A DNA stretch of 63,759 nucleotides, the filler included, from Stramenopiles sp. TOSAG23-3 (lineage: Eukaryota), in assembly GCA_900128585.1 (NCBI GenBank). It is 14 parts of 14 records of this genome, joined end to end, with 100 filler letters (N's around TTAATTAATTAA, not from the genome) between each part and the next. Parts side by side here need not be neighbours in the genome. Positions count along the whole stretch, not along the records: positions 45,137 to 51,463 come from LT643339.1; 13 more parts are not named here. One strand, given 5' to 3'. Within the stretch, counting starts at the first letter, position 1, and every line of letters begins with the position of its first letter. Below the pieces are notes generated by a model. The model made no database searches and was not told where the DNA came from. It was given only the letters and a program-made list of their open reading frames with translations. Shown one piece after another: positions 21,058-58,940 of this stretch. A program made the position numbers and the translations under genes.

Positions 21058-22794
21058 ATGTCGCAGTTCGTGACGTCCGTCTCGGAGGACAGTTTCAGTA
21101 GCGGCGGGGACGTTACTGGCGCTTCTGGTTCGGGGACGATTGACTCCGGCACGAGTGGTGAAGTGATCTTGCCAGAGGAGTATCATGGTGCGTACATTAA
21201 GGTCTTATCAGATAGGTCAATTGTGCGATTGAAATTGCCTCCGCCCTCTGGGTTGGCTGCGGAAGAAATGTTCCAGAAGATCCAAGGGCAAGTTGCAATT
21301 AATGCAATTTTGAAGTACGAGGAGAAGGGGGAGCTGAATAGTTTGCGCTCGTTGCATAAACGTGGGCTTGGGGACGTTGGGGCTGAGATTGTGGCCAGAT
21401 TTATCGAGACTGACACGCCCCTCAACTCGCTGCGCGCGAAGGGTTACGTTAAAACGATTGGGTTGGCCGGAAACGGTATCGGGTCGGACGGGGCGCGGGC
21501 GCTGGCCCGAGCATTTTCGTCGAGGTCTCCCCGGGCAGTCGCGCTGAAGAGCATAGAGGTGTACAGCAACTGTAAAGGTCCGTTTTGGGGGTCGTTTGCG
21601 GGCCAAATTTTGGCCCATAACCCGTCTGTGACAAACATAGACTTGGGTGGGAATGATATTGGGGACGTTGGCGTATGTTCAATGCTCGCGCAAGCCAGCA
21701 CATGGATTGCATCCCGGGCGGGGGTGCCACTCACGTTGCATTTGGACTACTGTGGGTTGACCGATTCCGGCGCAAGTTTGCTGAAGAAGAGCATTCCAAA
21801 CGCACAGCTGTGGCTTCAAGGCAACGCAGTGTCAAAAATGTACCTGCGCCCGCCCGTTCCAACGCCAATGCACGACAATGAAATATTAGGCCTGCTGAAG
21901 CTCTCGGCACTAAATCTGATGGAGCACGAAACTGCGCACAGGGAGATGTACGACATAAACCAGTCGTCCAGCTCGGATAGCTTCCCCGACGCCGTCGCTT
22001 CGATGACCCTGAAACTTTGCGAACGCCAATGTCGTGACTTTATGAAAGGAATTGTGGGGCAGTGGACCATTGCCAGTTTCGTGCAAGAAGACATGTCCAC
22101 AAAAACGTGCCGTATTGTCAGCTGGGGCATGGGCACAAAATTTCTAAATTCCCAAGTTGCCAAGAATTGCGACGACCTGCTGGTCAAAGACTCCCACGCG
22201 GAGGTACTGGCTCGTCGTGCATTGAAAAAGTACTTTTGTTCCCATCTATTGGCCTTCGGCTCTCCCCCGACGGGAGAGCACATCAAGTACCATTTGTACA
22301 CATCAACTGCGCCATGCGTTAGTTCAAAAGGGCACACGGGGTCATGCTCCGAGAAAATATTGGGATGGTGCAAAGAGGGCATCATGGGGAAAGGACCGTA
22401 TGGAACCTTTTTTGGGTTTGTGCCTTTGTCGTCCATGATCATTGGAAAGAAGTACAAAAATAAAATAGTGGATAAGTTTGCGGAGTATTGTCCCGCCATT
22501 CGTCCGACGAAAATACGATTAGAGCACCTGACCCGTGCCAACAACACGACCAGAGGCGATACGGACGAATCCCGCGCCTTTTATATTGGGGGGAAGAGCA
22601 GCCTACGTGAAAAGCGCGCCACACGAAGTGCACCAATTGACAAAGGCATGTACTTTGCACACGACGGAAGAACTGGTATGGATTTAGACGGTGCGATGAG
22701 TCCTCTTTGCTCTTATGTGCTTCACCGTGAACAGGAATTAGCTGAGTTGGAGTGGGATGCCAATCAAGCAAAGCTGCGTTATCAACGCGATTGA
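21058..22794 (+). CDS. RNI-like LRR fused to an ADAR/ADAT1-type adenosine deaminase domain
   Basis: LRR units (LAGNGIGSDGA, LGGNDIGDVG, LDYCGLTDSGA), then VSWGMGTK, DSHAEVLARR, HLYTSTAPC, SCSEKILGW..GIMG, and C-terminal SPLC. Confidence 0.8.
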   Translation: MSQFVTSVSEDSFSSGGDVTGASGSGTIDSGTSGEVILPEEYHGAYIKVLSDRSIVRLKLPPPSGLAAEEMFQKIQGQVAINAILKYEEKGELNSLRSLHKRGLGDVGAEIVARFIETDTPLNSLRAKGYVKTIGLAGNGIGSDGARALARAFSSRSPRAVALKSIEVYSNCKGPFWGSFAGQILAHNPSVTNIDLGGNDIGDVGVCSMLAQASTWIASRAGVPLTLHLDYCGLTDSGASLLKKSIPNAQLWLQGNAVSKMYLRPPVPTPMHDNEILGLLKLSALNLMEHETAHREMYDINQSSSSDSFPDAVASMTLKLCERQCRDFMKGIVGQWTIASFVQEDMSTKTCRIVSWGMGTKFLNSQVAKNCDDLLVKDSHAEVLARRALKKYFCSHLLAFGSPPTGEHIKYHLYTSTAPCVSSKGHTGSCSEKILGWCKEGIMGKGPYGTFFGFVPLSSMIIGKKYKNKIVDKFAEYCPAIRPTKIRLEHLTRANNTTRGDTDESRAFYIGGKSSLREKRATRSAPIDKGMYFAHDGRTGMDLDGAMSPLCSYVLHREQELAELEWDANQAKLRYQRD

Positions 22795-25329: not shown

Positions 25330-25814
25330 TTCTCCGGCTTACTTCTCTATTCACGGCAATAAATCAACACCAATCAAAACCACCAATAGCTCTCTGTAAA
25401 GTGTTAATCATGATTTTTTTCCCGGGAAGCCTTTACCATTTCAATTTCTGTCGGTTACTTATATACTTATTAAATATATTCATGGAAGAAGATGGTGGAT
25501 AATAAAAAATAATATTTATTAATAATAATAATAATAATAATTCAAACATTCAAACACAACAACAAAAAACTTCTTTTTTTTTGTTGTTGTTGAATTTCGA
25601 ACATTCAATGGTATGATTATGTGAATACATAAATGTATACTATACAGCATAATGAACCAACAATATTATTTGGTGTGTTGATGTTATTATTCATCCAATA
25701 TGTACATAGCAACANNNNNNNNNNNNNNNNNNNNNNNNNNNNNNNNNNNNNNNNNNNNTTAATTAATTAANNNNNNNNNNNNNNNNNNNNNNNNNNNNNN
25801 NNNNNNNNNNNNNN

Positions 25815-32159: not shown

Positions 32160-33044
32160 NNNNNNNNNNNNNNNNNNNNNNNNNNNNNNNNNNNNNNNNN
32201 NNNTTAATTAATTAANNNNNNNNNNNNNNNNNNNNNNNNNNNNNNNNNNNNNNNNNNNNAGAATAATACACACACACACACAAATGTATTAAATTTCAAA
32301 TCTCAACCAAAAACAACAGAAGAAGAATTTCAAAGAGATACTTAGCACATTGTGAGACGGAAAATAAGCATCTAAAATTCTTAACAAGTGAATATCATTG
32401 TTCCAATTTTTGGACTTGTCCACGCCGTCTCACTTTGTGCACTTCCTGAGATTTGGACCTAAAAGTTTTGATAGGTAAAGGGAAAGACTCTACAAAAAAA
32501 TTAGGCTTAATTAGTATCGAATTAGCACACGTATGTGCTGTGACCTGTAATAGTTCTTTAATCCTGACTTTTTTTGTGAACAAAGTGAGACGGGACACCC
32601 TAACGGACAATACGGTTTTCCCATGCTAGTACAATTCCTATCAAATGATGAAACGGCATCAACGCTGCAGTTATGATTTATGTAAAAAAAAATCTGCTTA
32701 TTCCAAATATCTCACGCACTCTCACATACAGTAAATCTACATCTTTTATACCACCATCACTACCGTTATGGTCACTTTCACTACATATCTGTTTCATTCT
32801 TCAACACAAGAAAGAAGAGAAAACGATACAGAAGATAATTCAATAGTGCCAGTACAAAGTTTTCTCTCGGCCAGGACCCGAGAAAATCACAAGGCTATAA
32901 CCCCGACAACAAACGCTAGTAAGTCAAGGCTACAATTGACTCAGAGATTCTCTACTCTCACTTTCGCTGCCGTTGTCGCTGCCGTTGTCGCCGCCGCCGT
33001 CACTGCCACCGTCACTGCCGCCGTGCGGCGGCTGTTTCCACACT

Positions 33045-38600: not shown

Positions 38601-39204
38601 NNNNNNNNNNNNNNNNNNNNNNNNNNNNNNNNNNNNNNNNNNNNTTAATTAATTAANNNNNNNNNNNNNNNNNNNNNNNNNNNNNNNNNNNNNNNNNNNN
38701 TAATACTCATAGTATGTAAACATTAACATGTCTGATAAATACATCACATAACATAGAATAATGAATGGTGAGGACTTTTGTCTCCTCGTGTTGCTTCATT
38801 TATATGCTATGTCATTGTATATTATATATAATATTATATTTTAGACGAATATAATCGACTGAGTTGACACCTTGTATTATTAAATACCAGGATTGAATAC
38901 GACGTAGTACATTGTATCTACACAGCATGGACGACAACTCCACCCGGACTACCGTACCATAAACGGCAAAACCTTCTTTATTTTTCTAAATAATTTTTAA
39001 ATTATAGTATAGTATATACATTGTATTCTAATCTTTCTATCAAATCATCTTCTTCCGACGAATGATGAGGGAGGATGAGGAGAGGAGAAGATGATGAGAA
39101 AAGAAGAAGAAGGAGAGGAATCATTTCTTATTTTTTTCCATGAAAAGAAGAAAGTCTCCGCCCCGGTGATAGTTATTTGTTCAGTCCAACTGAAGCTTAA
39201 ACCA

Positions 39205-40230
39205 TTAGTTGTCTTCTACGCCTTTGGCTGAAAGCTGAATCTGCGCGTCACCTTCTGGCATTTCTGGCGAATCGATCAGTTTCACGATCCGGCTGTTTTC
39301 TCGACCTTTTTTCATTAGTATTCGAGTTTGGCACGCGTGCGCGACAATGTTTCCCCCAACCGGCTTCTGCGAGCAGGCGGCGATCATCGCTCCAGGGTCG
39401 GCTGTCATTTGGTTCGTAACGACGACGGCAATGTTAAACTCATCGGCTATCCTCTGTAAATCGTGAAGATGTCTCCCTAGCAGCTGCTGTCGGATCGAAA
39501 GCTCTCCTCGTCCACTAAACTCGACTCTGAACAGACTCATCAACGAATCGATGATCACAAGTTTTATAGGCTCGGGCGGCTGCTGCGTCAGCAAGGCGGC
39601 TATTTGCTGCGGAGCAAGCATCTGCTCGTCGTGGGTCATCACACGCTTGAACAGCACGTTTTCAACTATCTGATCTGGCTCAAACCCGTAAGCGGTTGCA
39701 ATTTCTATCAAACGTTCAGGTCGAAATGTACCCTCTGTGTCGATGAAGACTACCTTCCCCTCCGCTCCCCCCTCGCTCCGTGGCATTTGGGTCGTTACGC
39801 ATAGCGTGTGGCACAACTGGCTTTTTCCCGTACGAAATTCGCCGTGGATTTCTGTGATCGATTTTGATTGAAATCCTCCTCCTAAAAGCTCGTTCAAAGC
39901 GGTGGCACCAGAATTTATTTTAAGAATGCACTTTCGGGAATCAAGGGCTTCTGTTGCTGACATGAACCCGGACGGCTGAAGCTTCTTGCAGCAGTCGATG
40001 AGCTTTTGGACTTTGGCTTCGCTGAATCCTTTGATGTTCTCCAAGTGCTTAGCAGGCGTTGAGAGTACCATGCCCACGGTTCCTATGTTTGCTGCGTGCA
40101 GCTTTGTAATGTCTGACATGTTTATTCCTAAATTCTGCAGTTCGTCTACGGATTTTATGACATGTTCTTCGGATTCTCCATGTTGATTCTCTGCTGAGTT
40201 CAGGCGACGAGTTGATTGCGAGACGGACAT
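39205..40230 (-). CDS. DMC1: Meiotic recombinase DMC1
   Basis: GEFRTGKSQLCHTLCV, IDTEGTFRPER. FRVEFSGRGEL..RQQ and TNQMTADPGA are DMC1-type rather than RAD51 (YRTDY..RQMHL, TNQVVA). Confidence 0.88.
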   Translation of the reverse strand: MSVSQSTRRLNSAENQHGESEEHVIKSVDELQNLGINMSDITKLHAANIGTVGMVLSTPAKHLENIKGFSEAKVQKLIDCCKKLQPSGFMSATEALDSRKCILKINSGATALNELLGGGFQSKSITEIHGEFRTGKSQLCHTLCVTTQMPRSEGGAEGKVVFIDTEGTFRPERLIEIATAYGFEPDQIVENVLFKRVMTHDEQMLAPQQIAALLTQQPPEPIKLVIIDSLMSLFRVEFSGRGELSIRQQLLGRHLHDLQRIADEFNIAVVVTNQMTADPGAMIAACSQKPVGGNIVAHACQTRILMKKGRENSRIVKLIDSPEMPEGDAQIQLSAKGVEDN

Positions 40231-40831: not shown

Positions 40832-40888
40832 NNNNNNNNNNNNNNNNNNNNNNNNNNNNNNNNNNNNNNNNNNNNNNNNNNNNNNNNN
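40832..40888. other. Internal scaffold gap (no TTAATTAATTAA linker)
   Basis: 57 N without the concatenation linker, so it lies within one scaffold. Confidence 0.85.
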
Positions 40889-41152
40889 TTTTGTTATTAT
40901 TTTCATCACCACATCAAAAAAAGAGTCGTCTTCTATTTTTGTTCCTCCTTTCATGCGTGATGATGGTTTACATTTGAAAGAAGATTGATACGATTTAAAT
41001 GATAAAAAGTTGGAAAAAACGAAAAATTATGGAAGCAAGAAAAACTTGCGTTGAGTTATCGATAAATTAGTTTACTGTTCATTCAACTTAACCGCGTTTT
41101 AAAGGTTTTCTGTTCACGCCAGGGAGTGTATTGTATCTGTATCTATCGAGAG

Positions 41153-42355
41153 ATGTCGAACGGTTTGGTTGCATCAATGAATGCCATGCGGGGTGATCAA
41201 GGACTCAATACCGTACTATCACGGTCGGGGCAAATCGCGGAGCAGAATTTTACAGGACAACAAACCGAGGATGAATCGAAACGAATGGACAAACAGATAC
41301 TCCTGTCGCGCCTTTCTAATGCAATTGATACTCTGAAATGCTTGCTGGAAGAGAGACTACGGGGTCGCCGGGTTGCGTTCAGCGAGTGCTTCTCCCTCGC
41401 GCCCTTCGCTAACAGTACCCCTCGCGGCCGCGGTAAGATTGAACGAGTTCTCTACGTGCTTCACCGTTCGGTTGGCCTGATAAGGCGGGGTGAGTTTATT
41501 TCGCTGCGACAATTATATTATGAGTCAGAACTATTCCGCTCGCAAAGAATTAGCGACGATGCCGTTGTCCTGGCGTGTGCGTTCGTGGGTCTTCCTAGAT
41601 ACAAACTGGGATTTCTGGCCAGTCATTCTGGGTATTTGTTCGGTGGTTCGCCGCAAACGAGGGACTCCGACGGCGTGTACCATGGGCTATATTACCGCAC
41701 ACAACTGAATCCTGCATGGAAACTGATTAAACAACCCTTGGAAATAAATGATGAGTTTGCGTTTGCAGACGGCCTTGAATTCAAAAGTACGAGACCAATT
41801 CGTTCAATCGTTGTAGTCGAGAAGGAGACGATTTTTCGACAGCTTCGCACAGAGCTCTTTTGCGAAAAGACCTCTTCGATTATCATAACGGGGGGGGGTC
41901 AGCCAAGCGTTGCCGCGCGTGCGTGTTTGTTCTACATCCGGAGAGACGTTCCGCGAATTGCCGGTACGTTCGGTGTGTGCGATTACAACCCTTCTGGTTT
42001 TTATATAATGCAATCGTGGATGTATTCCACGCCGATTTGGAACGAATTGGCAAAATTGGAAGATTACAAATTATCGTGTGTGACTCTGAAAGTCATAGGA
42101 TTGCGTGCTCGCCACGTTAGGGAAAACGATAGGCGAAGGCCGCACGCCGTGGTAAAGAAAAAGTTTACAGATCTAGATCGTAGCAAAATGCGAAAATTAA
42201 AGGAAAGGCTCACAAAGAAAGGCAAAGTTGACTTCGTGCGAGAAATAGAACTAATGGAGCAGTACGGCCACAGTATCGAACTCGACCACATCAACTACAT
42301 CACGCTGGCATGTTTAATTCAGCAAGCAATTTTGCGAAAACAATATTTGCTGTGA
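41153..42355 (+). CDS. SPO11: SPO11 / topoisomerase VI A family protein (SPO11-2-like DxN)
   Basis: SLRQLYY (catalytic Tyr), FRSQ, LPRYKLG, IVVVEKETIF, IITGGGQP, CDYNPSG, IELD. Confidence 0.88.
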   Translation: MSNGLVASMNAMRGDQGLNTVLSRSGQIAEQNFTGQQTEDESKRMDKQILLSRLSNAIDTLKCLLEERLRGRRVAFSECFSLAPFANSTPRGRGKIERVLYVLHRSVGLIRRGEFISLRQLYYESELFRSQRISDDAVVLACAFVGLPRYKLGFLASHSGYLFGGSPQTRDSDGVYHGLYYRTQLNPAWKLIKQPLEINDEFAFADGLEFKSTRPIRSIVVVEKETIFRQLRTELFCEKTSSIIITGGGQPSVAARACLFYIRRDVPRIAGTFGVCDYNPSGFYIMQSWMYSTPIWNELAKLEDYKLSCVTLKVIGLRARHVRENDRRRPHAVVKKKFTDLDRSKMRKLKERLTKKGKVDFVREIELMEQYGHSIELDHINYITLACLIQQAILRKQYLL

Positions 42356-44825: not shown

Positions 44826-45499
44826 GGCCGTCCTGAACCAAGCCAAACCACGACAAATTGCCCGGGTAACCTGTTTCGCCCTTTGTTTGGCTTTCCCTTT
44901 GTACTTTTCTTCTACTTCGAAATTTCTGTCCTCTGGAAAGCGCGCAATGATCTTGTATAGTTTTTCATAAATATATTGATGTTATACACTGCTTGATAAA
45001 TCAATCAATTCTTTCAATATACTTATTTTACAAATANNNNNNNNNNNNNNNNNNNNNNNNNNNNNNNNNNNNNNNNNNNNTTAATTAATTAANNNNNNNN
45101 NNNNNNNNNNNNNNNNNNNNNNNNNNNNNNNNNNNNTAAAATAAATGTGCGAACAACTTCTCTCCTTCTTCTTTCTTCTTCTTTTTTTATTTTCAACTTT
45201 TTTTTATTATTTTTTTCCTTGGTTCCTCCTTGGATGGTATCATCGATATAAGATGGGCACCGCACCACCACCACCGATATTCATTCATGATGACGATTAT
45301 AATCAATGCATTATTAAAAAATTAGAAAAAGAGCGGAAGTTATAACACTCTTTCACCAGGAAGAGTAAACAGAGACTTGTTGAAAGGAATGTAAAATAGT
45401 TAGACCAAGAGAGAAGCAAAGAATGGTTATAAATTATTGGTGCTGTCATAGGTTTTGATTAAATTTTTGTATTTCTCCTCGCGAATATTACATAGTACC

Positions 45500-47209
45500 A
45501 TGTCGGACTTTGAACGAAGGAAGTTAAACTGTTTGGGAAAGCTTGACAAGTCTTCGGCTGGGCGCATTGACGCAAAGGCGGTGGAGATATGTGGTGCAAT
45601 CAACAACCTCCCCGATTTTTACACAACATCGTCCTGTGCTGGTAGGACCCATTTATGGCGCGGTGTCGGGTACAAAGGAACGCAGGGGAAACGTTTTGAG
45701 AGGTTTCGGGTGAATCACGACCTAATTGACGACGTCGACAGTTATTTCGACTTGAACGTGTCCGAGACCTCCGACGCCGCGTCGGTCCAAAGTCACGACA
45801 GCGAACCGAACGGATTGAGGGGTGGTATATCGCCTTGGGCGGAGCAATCGAATGACTTAGACATTGAAGCCGACGGGACGCTCTGGCTGCGCTGCGAACC
45901 TTTCATCCTGCACGTGTGCTGTCGCACCCTCAAGGCGGCACACGCCCTGGTTTCCGTGTCGAGGGCAGCGTTTAAGAATGTCGGACTGCAGAGCTGGAAA
46001 GATGAAAAGTACATGGTCTCCGTATGGGGCGATGATGGGCTGGACATGCCATTGACGGCGCCAGGTACACAAGGCAAGGTGCCCTTGTTCCCTGAGACTT
46101 CTCAGAAAGAATGGATAAAGGCTGTAGTTAACGGAAAGCACCAGAGAAATTGGGGTAAAATCGATAAGCTGGTGGAGGTGGTTCGGAAGGAGTTGGCTGG
46201 GTTGGACTTTTCGGAGGACGTTGCGTCGACGGATCAGGGGCAGGGCGCCGGAGTCCCAAGGCATTTTGACGTAATTGGTGACGTGGCCCTCTTGCACGAG
46301 CTACCTCAGAACTGCGCTACCATCGAGGAGAAGAAGGAATTAGGGGAGGCTGTGCTAAAAACTAACCGTAGACTGAAAGTGTGCGCTGTTCGGTGCGGGA
46401 AAATGGAAGGCGACACGAAACGCGTGGACCTTGAAATCCTTGCAGGGCACGTACGTACGCCCCTGCTGACGACTCACTACGAGTACGGCGTCGGCTACAT
46501 TGTAAATGTCGGTGAATGCTTTTTTTCTCCAAGGATGGGCCTGGAACGGCTGCGCTTGTGCAATTCAATCAGTCGGGGGGAAGTAGTGTGCTGTTTATTC
46601 AGTGGTTGTGCTGCCGAAGCCCTTCAAATTGCTGTAAAGACGGAAGTAGCAAAGGTCGTGGCCGTTGAAATGAATTCAGCAGCCGTCGCATGTGCCCGCA
46701 AAGGCGTCGAGGCGCTGAGGGGCAGAAACAAGGCTAAAAATCCGGAAGCTGCGGCGAAGATCGAGCTTATAGAGGGCGACGTGGCGTCCGTACTGCCGTC
46801 TATGCAGCATGGTTCCTTTGACAGAATTGTAGCGCCCAGGCCGAAAGGGGCAGACCCAGGCGTGAACGGTGGAGGCGGGGACGGCGGCCTACTTTTTCTC
46901 AGGCTGCTCCTGCCCTTGCTTAAAGCGGGGGCGGAGTGCCACTGGTACGATTTCGCGGGGAAGCAGGAACTACCGCAGTGCGCTCGAACCACGCAGTTCT
47001 TAGTGGACAACTGCCTCGAGCATGGCTTGCAGTGCGATATTCTGTACGTAGGAAAAGCTGGAAAGAAGAGCATTGCCGCAGGGCAGTACAGAATTTGCGT
47101 TGATTTTCGCGTGCGTCCGATTAGTGTTGAAGCGAAGCAGACGCACGGCACTGATATTGTCAAAGAACGAATGATGAATCATACGGCAAAGCGACAATGG
47201 GCAGAGTGA
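45500..47209 (+). CDS. tRNA wybutosine synthesis fusion: TYW3 methyltransferase + TYW2/Trm5 (Met-10) domain
   Basis: DKSSAGRID...FYTTSSCAGR and EPFILHVCC (TYW3), then FDVIGDVA, EYGVGY, FFSPRMGLERLR, VVAVEMN, FDRIV (Met-10). Confidence 0.85.
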   Translation: MSDFERRKLNCLGKLDKSSAGRIDAKAVEICGAINNLPDFYTTSSCAGRTHLWRGVGYKGTQGKRFERFRVNHDLIDDVDSYFDLNVSETSDAASVQSHDSEPNGLRGGISPWAEQSNDLDIEADGTLWLRCEPFILHVCCRTLKAAHALVSVSRAAFKNVGLQSWKDEKYMVSVWGDDGLDMPLTAPGTQGKVPLFPETSQKEWIKAVVNGKHQRNWGKIDKLVEVVRKELAGLDFSEDVASTDQGQGAGVPRHFDVIGDVALLHELPQNCATIEEKKELGEAVLKTNRRLKVCAVRCGKMEGDTKRVDLEILAGHVRTPLLTTHYEYGVGYIVNVGECFFSPRMGLERLRLCNSISRGEVVCCLFSGCAAEALQIAVKTEVAKVVAVEMNSAAVACARKGVEALRGRNKAKNPEAAAKIELIEGDVASVLPSMQHGSFDRIVAPRPKGADPGVNGGGGDGGLLFLRLLLPLLKAGAECHWYDFAGKQELPQCARTTQFLVDNCLEHGLQCDILYVGKAGKKSIAAGQYRICVDFRVRPISVEAKQTHGTDIVKERMMNHTAKRQWAE

Positions 47210-48072
47210 CCATTGCCAAGTACAACGTGGGGGGTGGATTCTCGTGCGTACGATCAGTTTTAAATAGCTGTGCATTCTTAAGTCGTCTGATTATATATTA
47301 TTTTTTTTAAAACAAATTATATAGTAAATATTTATTTCTTTAAAAAATTCTTTAATTTTATTTAGGACGTGTATCAGTCTAGATATTATACTAGAAGACA
47401 CACGAAATATTTATTCATACCTTGGTATAATATTTATAAGTAAGAGACGTTCACTGCTGCTATATTATTATTATGGTCTTTTATTATTCGACTACTCGTA
47501 GTCCGCTTAGACGACTGGTTCTTTCTGACTCCTCTATTTTATTTATTTTATCACTTTTTGTTTTTTGGAGGGGAGGGTAAAATCCAATTTCTTCATCTCA
47601 ATTTTAATTTATGCTGTGTATATGTTATTTTCAGTCCACCACCGAACACGTAATAATGCATTTCTCTAAAAAAAATCATCTTCTTCTCAAAAAAAAATAG
47701 AAAAAGAAGAAGAAGCCCCGGTAAATATTAGATTTTTTTGGTGCTGTGTCCCTCTTGTTTTTGTTTTTTCTCTTTTTCTCAATTCTTTACCAAAGCACAA
47801 ATGTTCGATTATGTTCCTTTTGTTTTTTGTCGCGGCGGGGGGTGTGGGTGGTGGGTGAATACTATACTCTCTTCGTAACAACTCGATTTACTGTTATCGT
47901 ACCGACGAGTGAAACTCAGGCATCGTTACGTTGTCTAGAGATCGTCAATTTTCTTTTCTTGTCGGATGTGGTGTGAATTATATTTTGTGTGAAGAAGAGT
48001 ACTAAATTAGAAAACGTCTGAAACGCAAATAAAACAAAGGAAGAAAAAAAGAAACAAAACAGTTTTAACAGC

Positions 48073-51000
48073 ATGGTCTTTGGAGGAATCATAAACCATT
48101 TCGGACATGTAAAGGGCGTGTCGAAGAACTGCTTCTTGGTCACTGCGCCAGAAGAGGTGGTGAGCACTGCGAAGCTGGGGGACAGTATAGCTCTTGACGG
48201 GGTTTGCCTTACCATTACGTCGATTGAGGGGAATGTACTGTCATTTGACCTTAGCGATGAGACGCTTCGAGTGACAACGTTCGGCACGGCGCCTACGACC
48301 GTCCATCTCGAGCCAGCGTTGAAACTCGGCGACTCCATCGGGGGGCACATCATAAACGGGCACGTCCATGGGGTTGGTCTATTTACCTCGCTGGACAAGA
48401 CATCGGGCGAGATGGAAATATGCCTGCCTACTACAACGTTTAAGTCAAGGCCGCTTTACAAGGACTGCATCGCGGTCAACGGGATCTCTTTGACAGTAGC
48501 GAAGGTTATCCCCGAAACGGAGTCCGTTGTCATTGCCCTGATCCCGCACACCATCAAGAAGACACTTTTTGCGACCATGTCCGAGGGACAGAAAGTCAAC
48601 ATTGAATTGAACGTGAAAACTCTTCAGAGGGATCATCCAGATAATAATGGTAACGAAGGCTCCCAGGATGTGCGCTTCATGCGAAAGGCAATTGAGGAGG
48701 GAGAGAAAGGGCGATACACTGCTGCCCCGAACCCATGCGTTGGTGCCGTCCTTGTCGACCCGTGGGGCACTGCCATCGACAGCGGATTCCATCGCAGGCC
48801 GGGGGAAGCCCATGCAGAGCGCTGCATAAAATCGTCCATGGTAGGGTGCACGCTGTACGTTACCTTGGAACCGTGCGTGCATAGTGGTCGGACCCCGCCA
48901 TGCACGGACTATATCATTGAGCGCGGTCCCGAAAGAGTTGTTATTGGAACACTGGACCCAGACGAAAGGGTCCGTGGCCGAGGGGTCTCCGCGCTGCAGG
49001 ATGCGGGGATCCAAGTTACGGTGGGCGTAGCAAAGGAAGAGGTCGAGCACAGCCTTAGGGCGTACCTGTGGCATCGCGCTAATCAAAAGACCCCCTACGT
49101 TGTGTGCAAGCTTGGGCTGTCCCAGGACAATTGCTTCGCGTACACAACGGACACGAGGATTAAACGAGAATGGATCACAGGGGAGCACGCACGGAAACAC
49201 TCCCACGGTTTGCGAGCTCGATCTCAACGGATTGTTGTAGGCAAAAATACGCACGAATTGGATAATCCGAAGTTGACAGTGAGGTACGGCATTGACGTCG
49301 ACACGCAGCCTGAGACTTGCATGAGCACGAGAGCGCTCAACTGGTTGAAACCAAACGACGATTCTTGCGTGCAAGTTCTGGTAGAAGGCGGGCCTGAGCT
49401 GGAAGACGATCTTATGCGTCGCAATCTCGTGAACGAGTTTGTTCTTTACCGTTCTAGCAAGATTCTAGGTCTGAATGGGGTGCGCTGGAATCCCTCTTTC
49501 CCTTCGTCAAAATGGAAATTAGTCGAGACCAGGACGTTTGAAGACGGGGACACCATGCAGCGCTTTCTCTGCCACGCCCGCGGTTTCTCCTCATCCTCCC
49601 CGGGCGCAGACATCGAGGCGGAAGAGAAGCTGAAGTTCGATTCCATAGAAGATGCCGTGAATGCCCTCCGGCGCGGGGAGCCAATCGTGGTGATGGACGA
49701 TGAGACGCGTGAGAACGAGGGAGATTTGATGATTCTGGCGGACCGAATCACCATGCGGTCCATGAAAACGTTACTCGCACTAACGACGGGCATTGTCTGC
49801 GCAACGATCACCCAGGCCCGGGCCAACCAACTTGCACTCCCGCTTATGGTGGGGGAGAACGACAACCAGGAAAGTCACAAGACAAAGTTCACACTCTCGG
49901 TCGATGCGGCCGAGGGGGTTACGACGGGTGTCAGTGCCGCTGACCGAATGCGTACACTTACGGTGATTGCAAAGTCGAGCACCAAGCCGAGAGATCTTGT
50001 TCGGCCGGGGCACGTGTTCCCACTTGTCGCCGCTGCCGGTGGAGTCCTAGAGCGTCGGGGGCACACTGAAGCCGGGGTGGATCTTGCACGAATGTGCGGC
50101 TGCATGGAACACCCCGCCATGGTAATTTCAGAGCTGTACGATCACGGCACCGGCAAGATGATGAATGCGGGGCAATGTCGTCACCTTGGTTTCCCAATGA
50201 TCCACATCGAGGCCCTGGTCCAGCGGCTTTCCAGTTGGTCGCTGTCCGCTTCGGTCCCGCTCCAGCACCACAGCGGCGACTGGAGAGTGGCCATCGTCGC
50301 TGGGTGCCGCATCGTCTCCTGCGGAAATCCGGTAAGAACCGACAACAACCGTACTGCTTCCGATAAGCAACGGCTGCTGCTGAGAATCCATTCTGAGTGC
50401 TTCACGGGGGACGTGCTTGGGTCGTCTCTGTGCGATTGTGGGGAGCAATTGCACGGTGCAATGCACGAGATATCGTCCCGCTCAGAGGGCGGCATAATAG
50501 TCTTCCCTGCGGAGCAAGAGGGACGGGGAATTGGCCTAGAGGAGAAGATCAAAGCGTACGGGCTGCAGCGCGACCGAGGTGTGGATACTTTTCAAGCAAA
50601 CCAAATTCTTGGTCACGGCAAAGACCTGAGAGAGTACGGCAGTGTGGTGTTTGCCCTGGGGCGCATAGGCGTATTGCCTGCGACTCACCGCATTGAAATC
50701 CTGACAGCCAACCCTGGAAAAGTAAAGGCCCTCAGGGACGCAGGGTACGACGTGACGTCCACCGCCCTGAAATCATCACCTTCGCACCACAATGCAAAAT
50801 ACATGAGGGACAAGCATGTTGAGTTCTCCAGCCTGGCCGATGCCCCAGCAATCGCCTCGTCTGCAGTGAGCGTCTCCCTTGACAAGCTAGCAAAAACATC
50901 GTTGCAGCAACACAAAGTGCCGGAGACAAACCTGTCGAAGCAGTCAATGCTAATGAAGCAGGCCCCACGCGTGATCTCCCTCACTGCCGACGAGCGAACG

Positions 51001-51450
51001 ATACTGAAAGACACGAAGGTATGTGTTGTCCAAGCGGAGTGGCACAAACACATGAGTTCACCCCTGGTGGGAACAATTCAGAAAGAGCTGTTGGTGCACT
51101 ACGGAGTCCCACTCAGCAACATCCGGATCGTCCCTGCCCCAGGATCGTTCGAAGTTCCGAGAGTTATCTCCCACCTCGCGTCGAGGGATCCTCACCGCGG
51201 CACGACCATCTACATCGCAGTCGGTATTTTGGTCAAGGGCAACACGGACCACTACGACCTGGTTGCGAAAGAGACGACGTCTGCAATAATGCGCCTGGGA
51301 ATGGAGAAGGACTTGTGGATTGTAAATGCAGTCCTGGCCTGCCACAACATGACCCAGGTTCGTGAGCGTTGCTTGGAAGAGTTTGACCACTGCGTTGGCC
51401 CACACATGGCGCAGGCTGTCGCCCGATTATCATTATTATCTCGATCGTAA
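48073..51450 (+). CDS. Multifunctional riboflavin biosynthesis protein: riboflavin synthase + RibD deaminase/reductase + RibB + RibA + lumazine synthase
   Basis: One 1125-aa ORF: MVFGGII/GDSIALDGVCLT/GGHIINGHV/IAVNGISLTV; PNPCVG/HAE/LEPC..GRTPPC; WITG/DNPKLTVR/VEGG; DDETRENEGD/TTGVSAADR/RPGHVFPL/GHTEA; RIHSECFTGD..CDCGEQ/QEGRGIG; PGSFEVP/GILVKGNTDHYD/QVRER. Confidence 0.95.
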   Translation: MVFGGIINHFGHVKGVSKNCFLVTAPEEVVSTAKLGDSIALDGVCLTITSIEGNVLSFDLSDETLRVTTFGTAPTTVHLEPALKLGDSIGGHIINGHVHGVGLFTSLDKTSGEMEICLPTTTFKSRPLYKDCIAVNGISLTVAKVIPETESVVIALIPHTIKKTLFATMSEGQKVNIELNVKTLQRDHPDNNGNEGSQDVRFMRKAIEEGEKGRYTAAPNPCVGAVLVDPWGTAIDSGFHRRPGEAHAERCIKSSMVGCTLYVTLEPCVHSGRTPPCTDYIIERGPERVVIGTLDPDERVRGRGVSALQDAGIQVTVGVAKEEVEHSLRAYLWHRANQKTPYVVCKLGLSQDNCFAYTTDTRIKREWITGEHARKHSHGLRARSQRIVVGKNTHELDNPKLTVRYGIDVDTQPETCMSTRALNWLKPNDDSCVQVLVEGGPELEDDLMRRNLVNEFVLYRSSKILGLNGVRWNPSFPSSKWKLVETRTFEDGDTMQRFLCHARGFSSSSPGADIEAEEKLKFDSIEDAVNALRRGEPIVVMDDETRENEGDLMILADRITMRSMKTLLALTTGIVCATITQARANQLALPLMVGENDNQESHKTKFTLSVDAAEGVTTGVSAADRMRTLTVIAKSSTKPRDLVRPGHVFPLVAAAGGVLERRGHTEAGVDLARMCGCMEHPAMVISELYDHGTGKMMNAGQCRHLGFPMIHIEALVQRLSSWSLSASVPLQHHSGDWRVAIVAGCRIVSCGNPVRTDNNRTASDKQRLLLRIHSECFTGDVLGSSLCDCGEQLHGAMHEISSRSEGGIIVFPAEQEGRGIGLEEKIKAYGLQRDRGVDTFQANQILGHGKDLREYGSVVFALGRIGVLPATHRIEILTANPGKVKALRDAGYDVTSTALKSSPSHHNAKYMRDKHVEFSSLADAPAIASSAVSVSLDKLAKTSLQQHKVPETNLSKQSMLMKQAPRVISLTADERTILKDTKVCVVQAEWHKHMSSPLVGTIQKELLVHYGVPLSNIRIVPAPGSFEVPRVISHLASRDPHRGTTIYIAVGILVKGNTDHYDLVAKETTSAIMRLGMEKDLWIVNAVLACHNMTQVRERCLEEFDHCVGPHMAQAVARLSLLSRS

Positions 51451-51563
51451 AGACTGTACCTAGNNNNNNNNNNNNNNNNNNNNNNNNNNNNNNNNNNNNN
51501 NNNNNNNTTAATTAATTAANNNNNNNNNNNNNNNNNNNNNNNNNNNNNNNNNNNNNNNNNNNN

Positions 51564-57686: not shown

Positions 57687-58940
57687 TCTTATTCTCGAAG
57701 AAACTAAATATCAAGCGAATCGATTAGTACGGCAATAACAACGAAAGAAAACGATATTTCTTTTCAAGGATTGATCATGGGTAGAAGGGGGAGAGAGCAA
57801 TAAAAGAGCCTAAAATCTCACACGCTGTTTTTTTTTTGTCAAAATGAAACATAATTATCGCGCGGTGCGGGGGGGGGGGGGGNNNNNNNNNNNNNNNNNN
57901 NNNNNNNNNNNNNNNNNNNNNNNNNNTTAATTAATTAANNNNNNNNNNNNNNNNNNNNNNNNNNNNNNNNNNNNNNNNNNNNGGAAGCGGGTGGCCATGG
58001 AAAAAATCGTGATACATAACAATTTTCCATAACGCTTCTTCCATCTCACATCATCAAATCCTCTCTTCTTCTCCTCTCTCTCCTCTACTACTCCTCGTAC
58101 GTACACTACTTCGAGGACTTCTCTTCTTTTCTTCTTTTTCTTATATCATCATAGTATTAATAATTTAATAATAATAAAACTAATATTATTATATATTAAT
58201 TAGTATAATAGAAGAAAGAAGAATACGCATTTAAGCGGAAAAAGAAAACGTGCAACAACAATGAGTAATAAATAATCCAACCAGAAGAACGCAACTCAAA
58301 ATGGTTGATGATGATGAAAAATTGATCAAGAAATCAAATTAAATAGTCGTCTAATTATTAGTGGGGGGGGGTGCTATACGTATGCTATACGAGGAGTAAC
58401 ACAATTCAGGTTCTTCCTTTGTGTTCTGTGTTAACTAACTACAGAACAGAGCAAAAAAGAATAGTACCGTATAGTAACCCAGAGTCGGAACGAACAGTTG
58501 ACCCAGTTTGACTCATTTTTTAATTGTATTAAGGATTGCTAATAATTTGTTTACCATTGATGCAGTGGATAAATAACAAACCACATAGATTAGATTGTTT
58601 TTGTTTTCCTACATGAGCGTTGCGTTTCCCTTAAGCTGTCAAAGAAATTTCCTGGATAAAAAAAACTGGGCACAACAAAACCGGGAGGGGGGGGGGCACA
58701 GTTGTATTCCGCTGTACCTTGGATTTTACCTTGGTAGTAGAAGAGGAGTAGAGAGCAAAAAATTGAACCAAGAAACTTTCTTTCCACTTGTCAACTACGG
58801 TACGGCACTAAGATTTCCTTGAATGCACAATTTGTTCTCTCGTTCTCTTTTTTGTTGCATTTAAAACTCAAAGAAGGGGTCGCTTTGTGTACCATACCCC
58901 AATTGAACATTCTTCGTGCCAACCCACTGCCGAACCAGCC

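What the first reader, a model, noticed from the sequence alone, without database searches (positions are those of the whole stretch)
48073..51450. Nearly the whole riboflavin pathway in one polypeptide (six catalytic domains)
Seen: one intronless, stop-free 1125-aa ORF with riboflavin synthase (~48073-48620), RibD deaminase and reductase (~48665-49575), DHBP synthase RibB (~49635-50230), GTP cyclohydrolase II RibA (~50250-50830) and lumazine synthase (~51010-51450). Signature motifs look intact in each: HAE/PC..C, RENEGD/GHTE, Cx10CxC/QEGRG, GxTxH and ER. Known: these cover every step from GTP and ribulose-5-phosphate to riboflavin except the pyrimidine-phosphate phosphatase; the usual fusions are only RibD and RibBA. 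It sits on a eukaryotic-style contig beside a TYW gene. Inference: a bacterial rib operon collapsed into one eukaryotic megaenzyme, analogous to AROM or CAD. I know of no description of this architecture but cannot search for one.
Basis: partly seen in the sequence, partly recalled or inferred. Interest (0 to 1): 0.93.

Follow-up and report, generated by a model that had tools for sequence, protein, structure and literature searches.

The report
One-gene riboflavin pathway in a protist
An uncultured marine protist carries, and appears to transcribe as one message, a single gene that joins six of the seven enzyme activities needed to make vitamin B2, and related fused genes occur in other protists and in giant viruses, apparently without ever having been studied.

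Summary
Window 48073..51450 (+) is one stop-free 1125-aa ORF. Pfam finds riboflavin synthase, pyrimidine deaminase, reductase, DHBP synthase, GTP cyclohydrolase II and lumazine synthase, in that order, all above gathering score. Catalytic motifs are kept. AlphaFold gives six folded domains joined by three disordered linkers. Three metatranscriptome contigs from two studies cover 48018..51463 colinearly, with no gap or joint.

The window is many contigs joined by spacers. The gene's real contig is 45137..51463. Its only linked neighbour is a TYW3-TYW2 gene whose named relatives are all stramenopiles.

The architecture is not unique. 25 of the 150 best 50%-identity representatives have the same six domains in the same order. 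One named relative is Indivirus ILV1, a giant virus by the literature. Orpheovirus carries the two halves as separate genes.

The fused order (E-D-BA-H) differs from the bacterial operon order (D-E-BA-H). Trees suggest two half-fusions were joined stepwise.

I found no paper describing or testing the six-domain enzyme. I rate it a new variant of a known kind. Activity is inferred, not shown.

The parts
45137..51463 (.). The real contig that carries the gene (6327 bp), bounded by artificial N44-TTAATTAATTAA-N44 spacers
   Evidence: One search lists N runs at 45037-45080 and 45093-45136, and at 51464-51507 and 51520-51563, with spacers at 45081 and 51508. One search shows the sequence.
45455..47209 (+). 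The only physically linked neighbour: a TYW3 + TYW2 (wybutosine synthesis) fusion gene. It serves as a taxonomic marker for the contig.
   Evidence: Pfam TYW3, TYW2_N_2 and TRM5-TYW2_MTfase. Named relatives are Heterosigma akashiwo (52% identity), several diatoms and one MMETSP 'Pyrod...' record. GC3 is 0.60 against 0.64 for the rib gene.
48018..51463 (+). Extent of RNA-library contigs covering the whole gene (about 55 nt before the ATG, about 13 nt after the stop)
   Evidence: table 8: X10 covers 48018-51463, X12 covers 48021-51452, X14 covers 48022-51463. Each is a single contig of 3432-3470 nt with 0 gaps and no joints. No ATG lies between 48018 and 48072.
48073..51450 (+). Whole ORF, 1125 aa plus stop: the six-domain riboflavin multi-enzyme
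   Evidence: An identical 1125-aa protein was called on 9 contigs in JGI/IMG, Logan and ENA (P0030).
48073..48627 (+). Riboflavin synthase domain (aa 1-185; two Lum_binding repeats)
   Evidence: Pfam PF00677, 2 stretches. Aligns to 1i8d and 9ryj riboflavin synthases. G43, C45, L46, T47, G91, H92 and H97 are invariant in alignment A1.
48664..49077 (+). Pyrimidine deaminase domain of RibD (aa 198-335)
   Evidence: PF00383. H247, A248, E249, P267, C268 and C277 are invariant in A1. Aligns to RibD structures 9no2, 2o7p and 2g6v.
49084..49581 (+). Pyrimidine reductase domain of RibD (aa 338-503), shortened by about 40-50 residues in this clade
   Evidence: PF01872 in 2 stretches. D397, G439 and G440 are invariant. 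The distance from the DxP motif to the EGG motif is 41-46 aa in 9 clade-A rows, 63-99 aa in the other 12 rows, and a median of 93 aa in 32 bacterial RibD. The model is still folded there.
49582..49626 (+). Disordered linker (aa 504-518)
   Evidence: pLDDT below 50.
49636..50232 (+). [quoted passage not shown]
   Evidence: PF00926, E 4.7e-61. TIGR00506 scores above its cut-off. R546, E547, E549, D551, H647, H664, T665 and E666 are invariant.
50245..50841 (+). GTP cyclohydrolase II domain (aa 725-923)
   Evidence: PF00925. Aligns to 4rl4, 2bz0 and 4i14. C776, C787, C789, Y829 and R818 are kept in 20 of 21 rows and R853 in 21 of 21.
50845..50961 (+). Long disordered linker (aa 925-963)
   Evidence: pLDDT below 50. 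One population variant, S920R, lies at its edge.
50986..51447 (+). Lumazine synthase domain (aa 972-1125)
   Evidence: PF00885. The best solved matches are 1kz6 and 1ejb, entries with 5 chains each. W990 and H1060 are kept in 17 of 17 rows that have the domain; R1099 in 15 of 16.

Best explanation
This is a genuine nuclear gene of an uncultured marine stramenopile. RNA-library contigs indicate that it is expressed. It is read as one mRNA and one 1125-aa polypeptide. The polypeptide carries, from N to C terminus, riboflavin synthase, pyrimidine deaminase, pyrimidine reductase, DHBP synthase, GTP cyclohydrolase II and lumazine synthase, as six separately folded domains on flexible linkers.

Inferred working: GTP cyclohydrolase II opens GTP. 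The deaminase and then the reductase (bacterial order, using NADPH) give the ribitylamino-pyrimidine phosphate. A separate, unlinked phosphatase removes the phosphate. DHBP synthase makes the four-carbon unit from ribulose 5-phosphate. Lumazine synthase condenses the two. Riboflavin synthase dismutates two lumazines into riboflavin plus one pyrimidine, which goes back to lumazine synthase.

Fusion fixes the enzymes at 1:1, keeps reactive intermediates local, and makes almost the whole pathway movable as one gene.

The gene belongs to a family shared by protists and giant viruses. The family seems to have arisen by joining two earlier half-fusions (RS-RibD and RibBA-LS), not by read-through of a bacterial operon.
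For: Shown:
- ORF and six Pfam domains in order.
- Catalytic and metal-binding positions conserved across 21 relatives, and aligned to solved enzymes. The roles I assign to these residues are recalled from the literature, not taken from a call.
- AlphaFold mean pLDDT is 82.1, with only three low-confidence linkers at 188-195, 504-518 and 925-963.
- Single RNA-library contigs in 3 runs from 2 studies run from about 48020 to 51452/51463 with 0 gaps and no joints. A fourth run gives 8 pieces.
- The same protein appears in independent assemblies (P0030, 9 contigs). 20 runs from 8 studies hold at least half of the sampled words.
- The linked TYW3-TYW2 gene has stramenopile relatives.
- GC3 is even across the six domains (0.61-0.67) and close to the neighbour's 0.60. 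Intergenic GC is 0.33.

Family:
- 17 of 28 hits carry all six Pfam families.
- 25 of the 150 best representatives have the six domains in the same order, 25 have RS-RibD only and 24 have RibBA-LS only.
- Viral contigs: L001 has the full protein; L002+L004 and L005 carry the halves.

Origin:
- The RibBA-block tree separates all 41 six- or five-domain rows from all 80 bacterial operon rows (support 91), with RibBA-LS proteins basal.
- The RibD-block tree does the same (support 99), with RS-RibD proteins basal.
- Operon order differs from the fused order.
Against: - No activity has been measured for any member. Function of every domain is inferred from sequence and a model.
- The reductase domain of this clade lacks about 40-50 residues present in bacteria and in the other clade, so that step is the least secure.
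- The RS, GTP cyclohydrolase II and LS domains score below NCBIfam equivalog cut-offs.
- Riboflavin synthase is a trimer, lumazine synthase a pentamer or 60-mer, and the others dimers or tetramers (recalled). How these symmetries coexist in one chain is unexplained. The model's domain arrangement is not confident (pTM 0.39).
- RNA evidence is from assembled contigs in RNA libraries, which can contain DNA (tool warning).
- One other assembly splits the gene by a frame change near aa 221 (P0032 + P0034).
- The trees are FastTree on sequences picked by similarity to the query. They include no plant or fungal references. Some 'half' proteins may be fragments of short contigs.
- The contig is only 6.3 kb, so the genomic context is thin.
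Confidence: 0.75

Rival explanations
1. The fusion is real, but one or more domains are no longer catalytic. The first suspect is the shortened reductase. The divergent riboflavin synthase, GTP cyclohydrolase II and lumazine synthase domains could also be affected. The protein would then do only part of the pathway, or use the dead domain as a scaffold, with separate genes or uptake covering the rest.
For: - Clade-specific loss of about 40-50 residues in the reductase domain (alignment gaps).
- Three domains score below NCBIfam equivalog cut-offs.
- A close relative, P0005, has lost the zinc-binding cysteines and other conserved positions of GTP cyclohydrolase II.
- Relatives P0019, P0020 and P0022 lack lumazine synthase altogether.
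- So domain decay and loss do happen in this family.
Against: - In the window protein every checked catalytic position is kept.
- The shortened reductase is conserved in 9 rows that share only 41-70% identity with the window protein. It keeps D397, E438, G439 and G440 and is modelled with block-mean pLDDT of 67-92. That pattern fits continued selection.
Confidence: 0.15
2. The 6.3-kb contig comes from a giant virus, or from a viral insertion, sequenced together with the cell. The gene would then be viral, not part of the protist's own metabolism.
For: - Relatives occur in the record named Indivirus ILV1 and on IMG/VR contigs of 151 kb, 362 kb and 1.47 Mb.
- The assembly seems to come from small runs labelled with an organism code, a setting where viral contigs can be co-assembled. 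That last point is my general knowledge, not a call result.
- The contig is short.
Against: - In the 44-row tree the window protein sits in an 11-row clade (support 99) with a cluster named after MAST-4 and a Papus transcript. It is apart from the 33-row clade that holds Indivirus, L001 and L003.
- The linked TYW3-TYW2 gene's named relatives are stramenopiles at 38-52% identity.
- Coding GC is 0.54-0.56, with an 860-bp intergenic region at GC 0.33. That resembles the other contigs of this assembly. Viral locus L001, by contrast, is tightly packed at GC 0.38.
- The DNA is found in marine metagenomes from 8 studies, 2015-2024.
Confidence: 0.07
3. The long ORF is an artefact: a chimeric assembly, or separate genes merged by sequencing error.
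For: - The window itself is an artificial chain of contigs.
- One ENA assembly calls the gene as two pieces.
Against: - The spacers lie outside the gene.
- An identical full-length protein is called on 9 contigs from three data sources.
- Three RNA-library contigs span it end to end without indels.
- 25 of the 150 best representatives, plus the 70%-identical P0003 cluster and the Papus transcript, have the same order.
Confidence: 0.02

Closest known systems
Indivirus ILV1 protein ARF09969.1 (UniProt A0A1V0SE20), annotated 'deoxycytidylate deaminase'
   Same: The same six Pfam families in the same order, in 1101 aa. It is 36% identical over 98% of the query.
   Different: It is encoded by what the literature treats as a giant virus. 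It lies in the other main clade of the family. It has a full-length reductase domain (86 aa between the motifs, against 42 here). It is AT-biased in composition. I found no paper that studies it; it is only cited as a homologue.
Orpheovirus IHUMI-LCC2 ORPV_596 and ORPV_666 (tri-domain riboflavin proteins)
   Same: They are homologous halves. One is RS-deaminase-reductase and the other is DHBPS-GCHII-LS. I found them as L004 and L002 on a 1,473,573-bp IMG/VR contig, the same length as the published genome.
   Different: They are two separate genes about 90 kb apart, not one. The paper describes the first as DHFR/dCMP deaminase/RibD and does not mention a riboflavin synthase part (passages only). 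In my trees the RS-RibD half (L004) falls in the basal grade; the RibBA-LS half (L002) falls inside the clade that holds 30 of the 32 six-domain rows.
Bacterial bifunctional RibD and RibBA, and the Bacillus rib operon
   Same: The deaminase-reductase block and the DHBPS-GCHII block have the same internal order as in bacteria, and align along most of their length.
   Different: In bacteria these are separate genes in the order RibD, RS, RibBA, LS (27 of 80 loci). Here all are covalently joined, with RS first. A 2026 review of the pathway mentions only bifunctional forms (term search of the text).
Bacillus subtilis 'heavy riboflavin synthase' (60 lumazine synthase subunits enclosing a riboflavin synthase trimer)
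   Same: It brings the last two enzymes together, so that lumazine and the recycled pyrimidine stay local. This is recalled knowledge; the complex is named in the abstracts listed.
   Different: That association is non-covalent and involves two enzymes only. Here the two are at opposite ends of one chain. The lumazine synthase domain matches best the S. pombe and yeast enzymes, deposited with 5 chains each. A capsid-type assembly is therefore not implied.
AROM (pentafunctional shikimate enzyme), CAD and type I fatty acid synthase
   Same: These are eukaryotic multi-enzymes that join consecutive steps of a pathway encoded by separate genes in bacteria (recalled).
   Different: There is no sequence relationship; this is an analogy only. 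Unlike AROM, this fusion is patchily distributed and shared with giant viruses.

Membership tests
Riboflavin synthase (RibE/RibC; Pfam Lum_binding x2) | Two tandem lumazine-binding barrels covering about 190 aa | tested here: met
   PF00677 with 2 stretches, 98.1 bits against a cut-off of 27. Aligns over aa 3-181 to solved riboflavin synthases. Two beta-barrel halves appear in the model.
Riboflavin synthase (RibE/RibC; Pfam Lum_binding x2) | NCBIfam equivalog score, and conserved N-terminal MFTG-type start, Cys in GxCLT and His pair in GGHxxxGH (residue roles recalled) | tested here: inconclusive
   NF006767 scores 152.3 against 155 and TIGR00187 scores 140 against 156.6, both just under their cut-offs. 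C45, H92 and H97 are invariant in 21 rows.
RibD deaminase (CDA-fold zinc deaminase) | H-A-E and P-C...C zinc and catalytic motifs | tested here: met
   H247, A248, E249, P267, C268 and C277 are invariant. TIGR00326 eubact_ribD scores 210.8 against 156.35.
RibD reductase (RibD_C, DHFR-like) | Complete domain of about 200-220 aa with DxP...R and EGG motifs | tested here: inconclusive
   The motifs are kept (D397, G439 and G440 invariant). But the Pfam match is split in two, and about 40-50 residues between the motifs are missing compared with bacteria and clade B. The region is still modelled as folded.
DHBP synthase (RibB) | Full-length match, with the acidic RENEGD loop and the GHTE motif | tested here: met
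   PF00926 profile positions 1-190 of 191, E 4.7e-61. TIGR00506 scores 194.5 against 177.45. R546, E547, E549, D551, H664, T665 and E666 are invariant.
GTP cyclohydrolase II (RibA) | Zinc site Cx10CxC plus the QEGRG, Tyr and Arg catalytic positions (roles recalled) | tested here: met
   C776, C787, C789, R818 and Y829 are kept in 20 of 21 rows and R853 in 21 of 21. Aligns to 2bz0, 4rl4 and 4i14. The Pfam match starts at profile position 38 and TIGR00505 is below its cut-off, so the N-terminal strands are divergent. They are present in the model (E725-750).
Lumazine synthase (RibH) | Flavodoxin-like domain with the aromatic residue, His and Arg of the active site (roles recalled) | tested here: met
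   PF00885 scores 91.6 against 26.7. W990 is kept in 17 of 17 rows, H1060 in 17 of 17 and R1099 in 15 of 16. TIGR00114 is below its cut-off at 67.7 against 84.6.
Lumazine synthase (RibH) | Oligomeric state (pentamer, decamer or 60-mer) | not testable with these tools
   There is only a lead: the best solved matches are entries with 5 chains. I ran no complex prediction.
Six-domain RS-RibD-RibBA-LS fusion family (protists and giant viruses) | All six domains in one chain in this order | tested here: met
   for the window protein. 25 of the 150 best representatives share the order. It falls in an 11-row clade with support 99.
Any member of the above | Measured enzyme activity | not testable with these tools
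   No assay exists in the papers I could search.

The most novel reading that the evidence does not exclude
Protists and giant viruses share a portable 'pathway in one gene'. A single mobile ORF confers de novo vitamin B2 synthesis. It has moved between viruses and distant eukaryotes: stramenopile, kinetoplastid and others. Because it unites a trimer-forming and a pentamer-forming enzyme with dimeric ones in one chain, it would assemble into a new kind of higher-order particle or network that channels the reactive pyrimidine intermediates. In viruses it would be used to raise the flavin supply of the infected cell.
Probability: 0.3. Interest if true: 0.85.

Novelty: new variant of a known kind. 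Interest (0 to 1): 0.68.

Why it matters
All enzymes of riboflavin synthesis are textbook, but reviews treat them as separate or at most bifunctional. If active, a natural chain with six activities would do several things.

- It would give enzymologists a ready-made system to test channelling of the unstable pyrimidine intermediates.
- It would pose a structural puzzle: how trimer, pentamer and dimer enzymes fit together.
- It would offer biotechnology a one-gene route to vitamin B2.
- It would add a complete vitamin pathway to the metabolic genes carried by giant viruses.
- It would mark gene flow between viruses and unrelated protists.
- It would imply that an abundant group of uncultured marine grazers can make its own riboflavin.

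Tried and rejected
- No whole genome is held for this window, so I could not ask whether separate rib genes or the phosphatase exist elsewhere in the organism.
- Rfam and tRNA scans of the window found nothing.
- A viral-contig scan with the single protein found nothing. The alignment A1 was needed to get 7 loci.
- The one metagenome-contig scan returned 80 loci, all bacterial operons with separate ORFs. They were useful as an outgroup and for gene order. They gave no genomic context for the eukaryotic or viral relatives.
- The genome-contig scan with the five-domain MAG protein P0067 gave only matches of 37-42% identity in bacterial genomes. I did not check their ORFs. This does not settle whether prokaryotes have long fusions.
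- The alanyl-tRNA synthetase search for taxonomy was uninformative. Apart from a few unnamed relatives at about 50% identity and two fungal records, the listed hits are about 40-46% identical, and nearly all named ones are bacterial. I later saw that the gene lies on a different contig of the chain.
- At first I took Rad51, Spo11, CFAP77 and others as linked neighbours. One search shows they are on other contigs, so they describe only the assembly, not this locus.
- Cluster look-ups of 20 further relatives gave almost no names.
- The first read-laying run failed because of N runs. I repeated it on 47500-51490.
- Not attempted: fold search of single domains, complex prediction of oligomers, and per-domain trees with plant or fungal references (no such sequences were on hand).
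Table S2 of PMC4921024 (a catalogue of riboflavin gene fusions, including 'triple fusions') and Fig. S12B of PMC7052976 might list longer fusions.

Full report
**1. The observation**

Window 48073..51450 (+) is a single ORF of 1125 codons with an ATG start and no internal stop.

| Pfam family | Residues | E-value |
|---|---|---|
| Lum_binding (two stretches) | within 3-181 | 2.9e-28 |
| dCMP_cyt_deam_1 | 198-293 | 2.4e-13 |
| RibD_C (two stretches) | from 341 | 1.8e-17 |
| DHBP_synthase | 526-717 | 4.7e-61 |
| GTP_cyclohydro2 | 764-896 | 1.1e-34 |
| DMRL_synthase | 981-1119 | 5.6e-26 |

NCBIfam is stricter. The RibD and RibB equivalog models pass their cut-offs. The riboflavin synthase models fall just short (152.3 against 155). 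The RibA and lumazine synthase models fall clearly short. Three of the six domains are therefore divergent members of their families.

**2. Integrity of the domains**

I aligned 21 relatives (A1). The following positions are invariant or nearly so:
- Riboflavin synthase: C45, H92, H97.
- Deaminase: H247, A248, E249, P267, C268, C277.
- Reductase: D397, G439, G440.
- DHBP synthase: R546, E547, E549, D551, H647, H664, T665, E666.
- GTP cyclohydrolase II: C776, C787, C789, R818 and Y829 in 20 of 21 rows; R853 in 21 of 21.
- Lumazine synthase: W990 and H1060 in 17 of 17 rows that have the domain; R1099 in 15 of 16.

The catalytic roles I attach to these residues are recalled from the enzymology literature, not taken from a call.

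AlphaFold2 on A1 gives mean pLDDT 82.1. It shows six compact domains and three low-confidence linkers at 188-195, 504-518 and 925-963. The pTM of 0.39 means the relative placement of the domains is not predicted.

There is one structural oddity. In the window protein and its eight nearest rows the reductase domain has 41-46 residues between its DxP and EGG motifs. The other 12 rows of A1 have 63-99, and 32 bacterial RibD have a median of 93. The shortened form is conserved across rows that share only 41-70% identity with the window protein, and it is modelled as folded. I therefore read it as a trimmed but probably working domain. It remains the weakest link in the functional inference.

**3. 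What the window is, and what is linked to the gene**

The window is not one contig. Thirteen N44-TTAATTAATTAA-N44 spacers cut it into pieces of about 6.3 kb and then about 1.1 kb. This is a chain of separate contigs.

The rib gene's contig is 45137..51463. It holds one other gene, a TYW3 + TYW2 fusion at 45455..47209. The Rad51, Spo11, CFAP77, adenylate cyclase and other genes that I annotated sit on other pieces. They say only what kind of assembly this is.

The linked TYW gene was the useful marker. Its named relatives are Heterosigma akashiwo (52% identity), a series of diatoms and one MMETSP record whose name is cut off at 'Pyrod'. The 90%-identity cluster of the rib protein's nearest relative (P0003, 70% identical) contains a EukProt entry named 'Stramenopile-MAST_4'. 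I conclude that the organism is an uncultured marine stramenopile. I did not try to identify the record.

GC3 is even along the six domains (0.61-0.67) and close to that of the TYW gene (0.60). The 860-bp intergenic region has GC 0.33.

**4. Reality and expression**

An identical 1125-aa protein was called on 9 contigs from JGI/IMG, Logan and ENA. Twenty public runs from 8 studies, mostly marine metagenomes from 2015-2024, hold at least half of the sampled words. Six of these runs are RNA libraries.

I laid four RNA runs on 47500-51490. Three of them, from two studies, each gave a single contig of 3432-3470 nt. These run from 48018-48022 to 51452-51463, with 0 gaps and no joints. A fourth run gave 8 smaller pieces. 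No contig laid in these four runs reaches the TYW gene.

There is no ATG between 48018 and the start codon. The four differences seen are two synonymous changes, V985I, and S920R at the edge of a linker.

This fits one unspliced mRNA of about 3.45 kb covering all six domains. The tool's own caveat applies: contigs from RNA libraries are not proof of transcription.

One ENA assembly splits the gene by a frame change near residue 221, inside the deaminase domain rather than at a junction. I take that as an error or a variant of that assembly.

**5. The family**

The word-indexed search gave 28 hits, 17 of which carry all six Pfam families. The exhaustive search of 1.84 billion representatives gave 38,176 hits at E <= 0.001.

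| Architecture | Number of the 150 |
|---|---|
| All six domains, same order | 25 |
| Five domains, lacking only lumazine synthase | 7 |
| RS-deaminase-reductase | 25 |
| DHBPS-GCHII-LS | 24 |
| RS-DHBPS-GCHII | 12 |
| Plain DHBPS-GCHII | 28 |
| Other combinations or fragments | 29 |

Named members are few:
- Indivirus ILV1 ARF09969.1, annotated 'deoxycytidylate deaminase'.
- A transcript of the free-living prokinetoplastid Papus ankaliazontas (53% identical).
- The MAST-4 entry.
- One five-domain protein from a MAG.

IMG/VR holds a full six-domain gene on a 151-kb contig (L001). It also holds the two halves on a 1,473,573-bp contig (L002, L004). That length equals the published Orpheovirus genome. 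On a 362-kb contig (L005) the two halves lie next to each other on opposite strands.

A 44-row tree (IQ-TREE, LG+G4, quick search) separates two groups. An 11-row clade holds the window protein, the MAST-4 cluster, Papus and eight unnamed rows (one of them five-domain). A 33-row clade holds Indivirus, L001 and L003.

**6. Origin**

The 80 loci returned by the metagenome scan are all bacterial-style operons with separate ORFs. 27 have the order RibD, RS, RibBA, LS. Three have RibBA, LS, RibD, RS. None has RS ahead of RibD, and none joins more than the usual bifunctional pairs. The fused order, RS-RibD-RibBA-LS, is therefore not what loss of stop codons in such an operon would give.

FastTree trees rooted on those bacterial proteins agree with each other:
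- For the RibBA block (210 rows), one branch (support 91) separates all 41 six- or five-domain rows and 24 of 25 RibBA-LS rows from all 80 operon rows. RibBA-LS proteins form the basal grade. 30 of 32 six-domain rows form a nested clade.
- For the RibD block (116 rows), a branch with support 99 separates all fused forms from all 33 operon rows. 12 of 24 RS-RibD proteins are basal.

The simplest reading is a stepwise history: two half-fusions came first and were later joined, with later losses of lumazine synthase or of GTP cyclohydrolase II function in some lines.

The limits are real. The rows were chosen by similarity to the query. Plant, fungal and amoebozoan references are missing. Some 'halves' may be fragments. 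FastTree support is only approximate. Whether the first fusion arose in a virus or in a eukaryote cannot be told from these data.

A kinetoplastid transcript nested among stramenopile-like sequences means either transfer between eukaryotes, or carry-over from another organism in that culture.

**7. How it most likely works**

Shown: the domains, their order, their conserved sites, and the single-message RNA contigs.

Inferred from established knowledge of the pathway:
- GTP cyclohydrolase II converts GTP to the diaminopyrimidine ribotide.
- The deaminase and then the NADPH reductase, fused as RibD in the bacterial manner, produce 5-amino-6-ribitylamino-uracil phosphate.
- An unlinked phosphatase, not encoded here, removes the phosphate.
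- DHBP synthase makes the C4 unit from ribulose 5-phosphate.
- Lumazine synthase condenses the two.
- Riboflavin synthase dismutates two lumazines, returning one pyrimidine to lumazine synthase.

Covalent linkage sets a 1:1 ratio and keeps the enzymes together. A paper on gene fusions notes that the product of the deaminase is highly reactive, and that enzymes flanking unstable intermediates tend to be fused (passages read). That fits a channelling or damage-limiting benefit.

For a virus, one gene carries nearly the whole pathway.

Unexplained: how enzymes with three-fold, five-fold and two-fold symmetry (recalled) assemble when tethered in one chain. The lumazine synthase domain matches best the S. 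pombe and yeast entries, deposited with five chains each. That is only a lead towards a pentameric form.

**8. Comparison with what is in print**

I saw these texts:
- The Orpheovirus paper (PMC5786535, passages). It reports two tri-domain riboflavin proteins with homology to Indivirus ILV1.
- Butenko et al. 2020 (PMC7052976, one passage). [quoted passage not shown]
- A 2026 review of the pathway (PMC13151069, term search). 'Fusion', 'fused' and 'multifunctional' occur 0 times; only bifunctional RibD and RibBA are discussed.
- Henry et al. 2016 (PMC4921024, passages). It catalogues binary and 'triple' fusions of riboflavin genes, with the list in a supplement I could not open.

Eight full-text searches turned up no description or assay of a six-domain enzyme. 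Supplements, and papers outside the library, may hold one.

**9. Verdict**

It is also less singular, because the architecture already sits, misnamed, in public databases and in giant viruses.

I rate it a new variant of a known kind: known enzymes in an uncharacterised, nearly pathway-complete fusion. Interest is 0.68. My confidence that it is a real, expressed six-domain gene of a stramenopile is high. My confidence that all six activities work is moderate.

Noticed in passing
window 6365-6464, 12819-12918, 19267-19366, 25715-25814, 32160-32259, 38601-38700, 45037-45136, 51464-51563, 57883-57982 and four more up to 62684: The window is a chain of separate contigs, sorted by falling length (about 6.36 kb down to about 1.08 kb). 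They are joined by N44-TTAATTAATTAA-N44 spacers that carry stops in all six frames. Gene neighbourhood across a spacer means nothing.
   Followed up: yes
window 45455-47209 (+): TYW3 and TYW2 (two steps of wybutosine synthesis) are fused in one 584-aa ORF. The same two-family layout recurs in all 120 listed relatives, including the named diatoms and Heterosigma. It looks like a stramenopile-wide fusion.
   Followed up: partly
window 39208-40230 (-) and 41126-42352 (+), same contig piece 38701-45036, with an N run at 40832-40888: A Rad51-family recombinase and a Spo11/Top6A homologue lie head to head on one contig. I did not test whether the recombinase is Rad51 or the meiotic Dmc1. Together they hint at a meiotic toolkit in an uncultured protist.
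   Followed up: no
protein P0005 (relative, 57% identical; no locus): A close six-domain relative has lost the three zinc cysteines, Y829 and R818 of GTP cyclohydrolase II. Its precomputed Pfam list lacks PF00925. This is an apparently decayed domain inside an otherwise conserved fusion.
   Followed up: partly
proteins P0019, P0020, P0022 (937-940 aa); P0020 lies on a 120,879-bp contig: A sub-clade of the virus-containing group ends after GTP cyclohydrolase II and lacks lumazine synthase.
   Followed up: no
L005 9905-11743 (+) and 11808-13508 (-): On a 362-kb IMG/VR contig the two half-fusions (DHBPS-GCHII-LS and RS-deaminase-reductase) are adjacent and convergent, 64 bp apart. One inversion plus loss of a stop would not give the six-domain order directly, so the joining step needs its own explanation.
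   Followed up: no
proteins P0032 + P0034 (ENA contig of 53,969 bp): Another assembly of the same gene calls it in two pieces, after a frame change near residue 221. That 54-kb contig would give the missing genomic context, but I could not fetch it.
   Followed up: partly
protein P0004 (Papus ankaliazontas transcriptome, EukProt EP00760): A kinetoplastid transcript groups inside the stramenopile-like clade at 53-55% identity. This is either gene transfer between eukaryotes or carry-over from another organism in the culture.
   Followed up: no
window 21058-22794 (+): An ORF combines a leucine-rich repeat with an adenosine-deaminase (editase, A_deamin) domain. I did not examine this pairing further.
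   Followed up: no
protein P0029 (Gonapodya sp. JEL0774, 1347 aa): A chytrid protein combines Lum_binding and DHBP_synthase with an acyltransferase family (PF01553) and PF19277. This is another unusual riboflavin-enzyme fusion.
   Followed up: no
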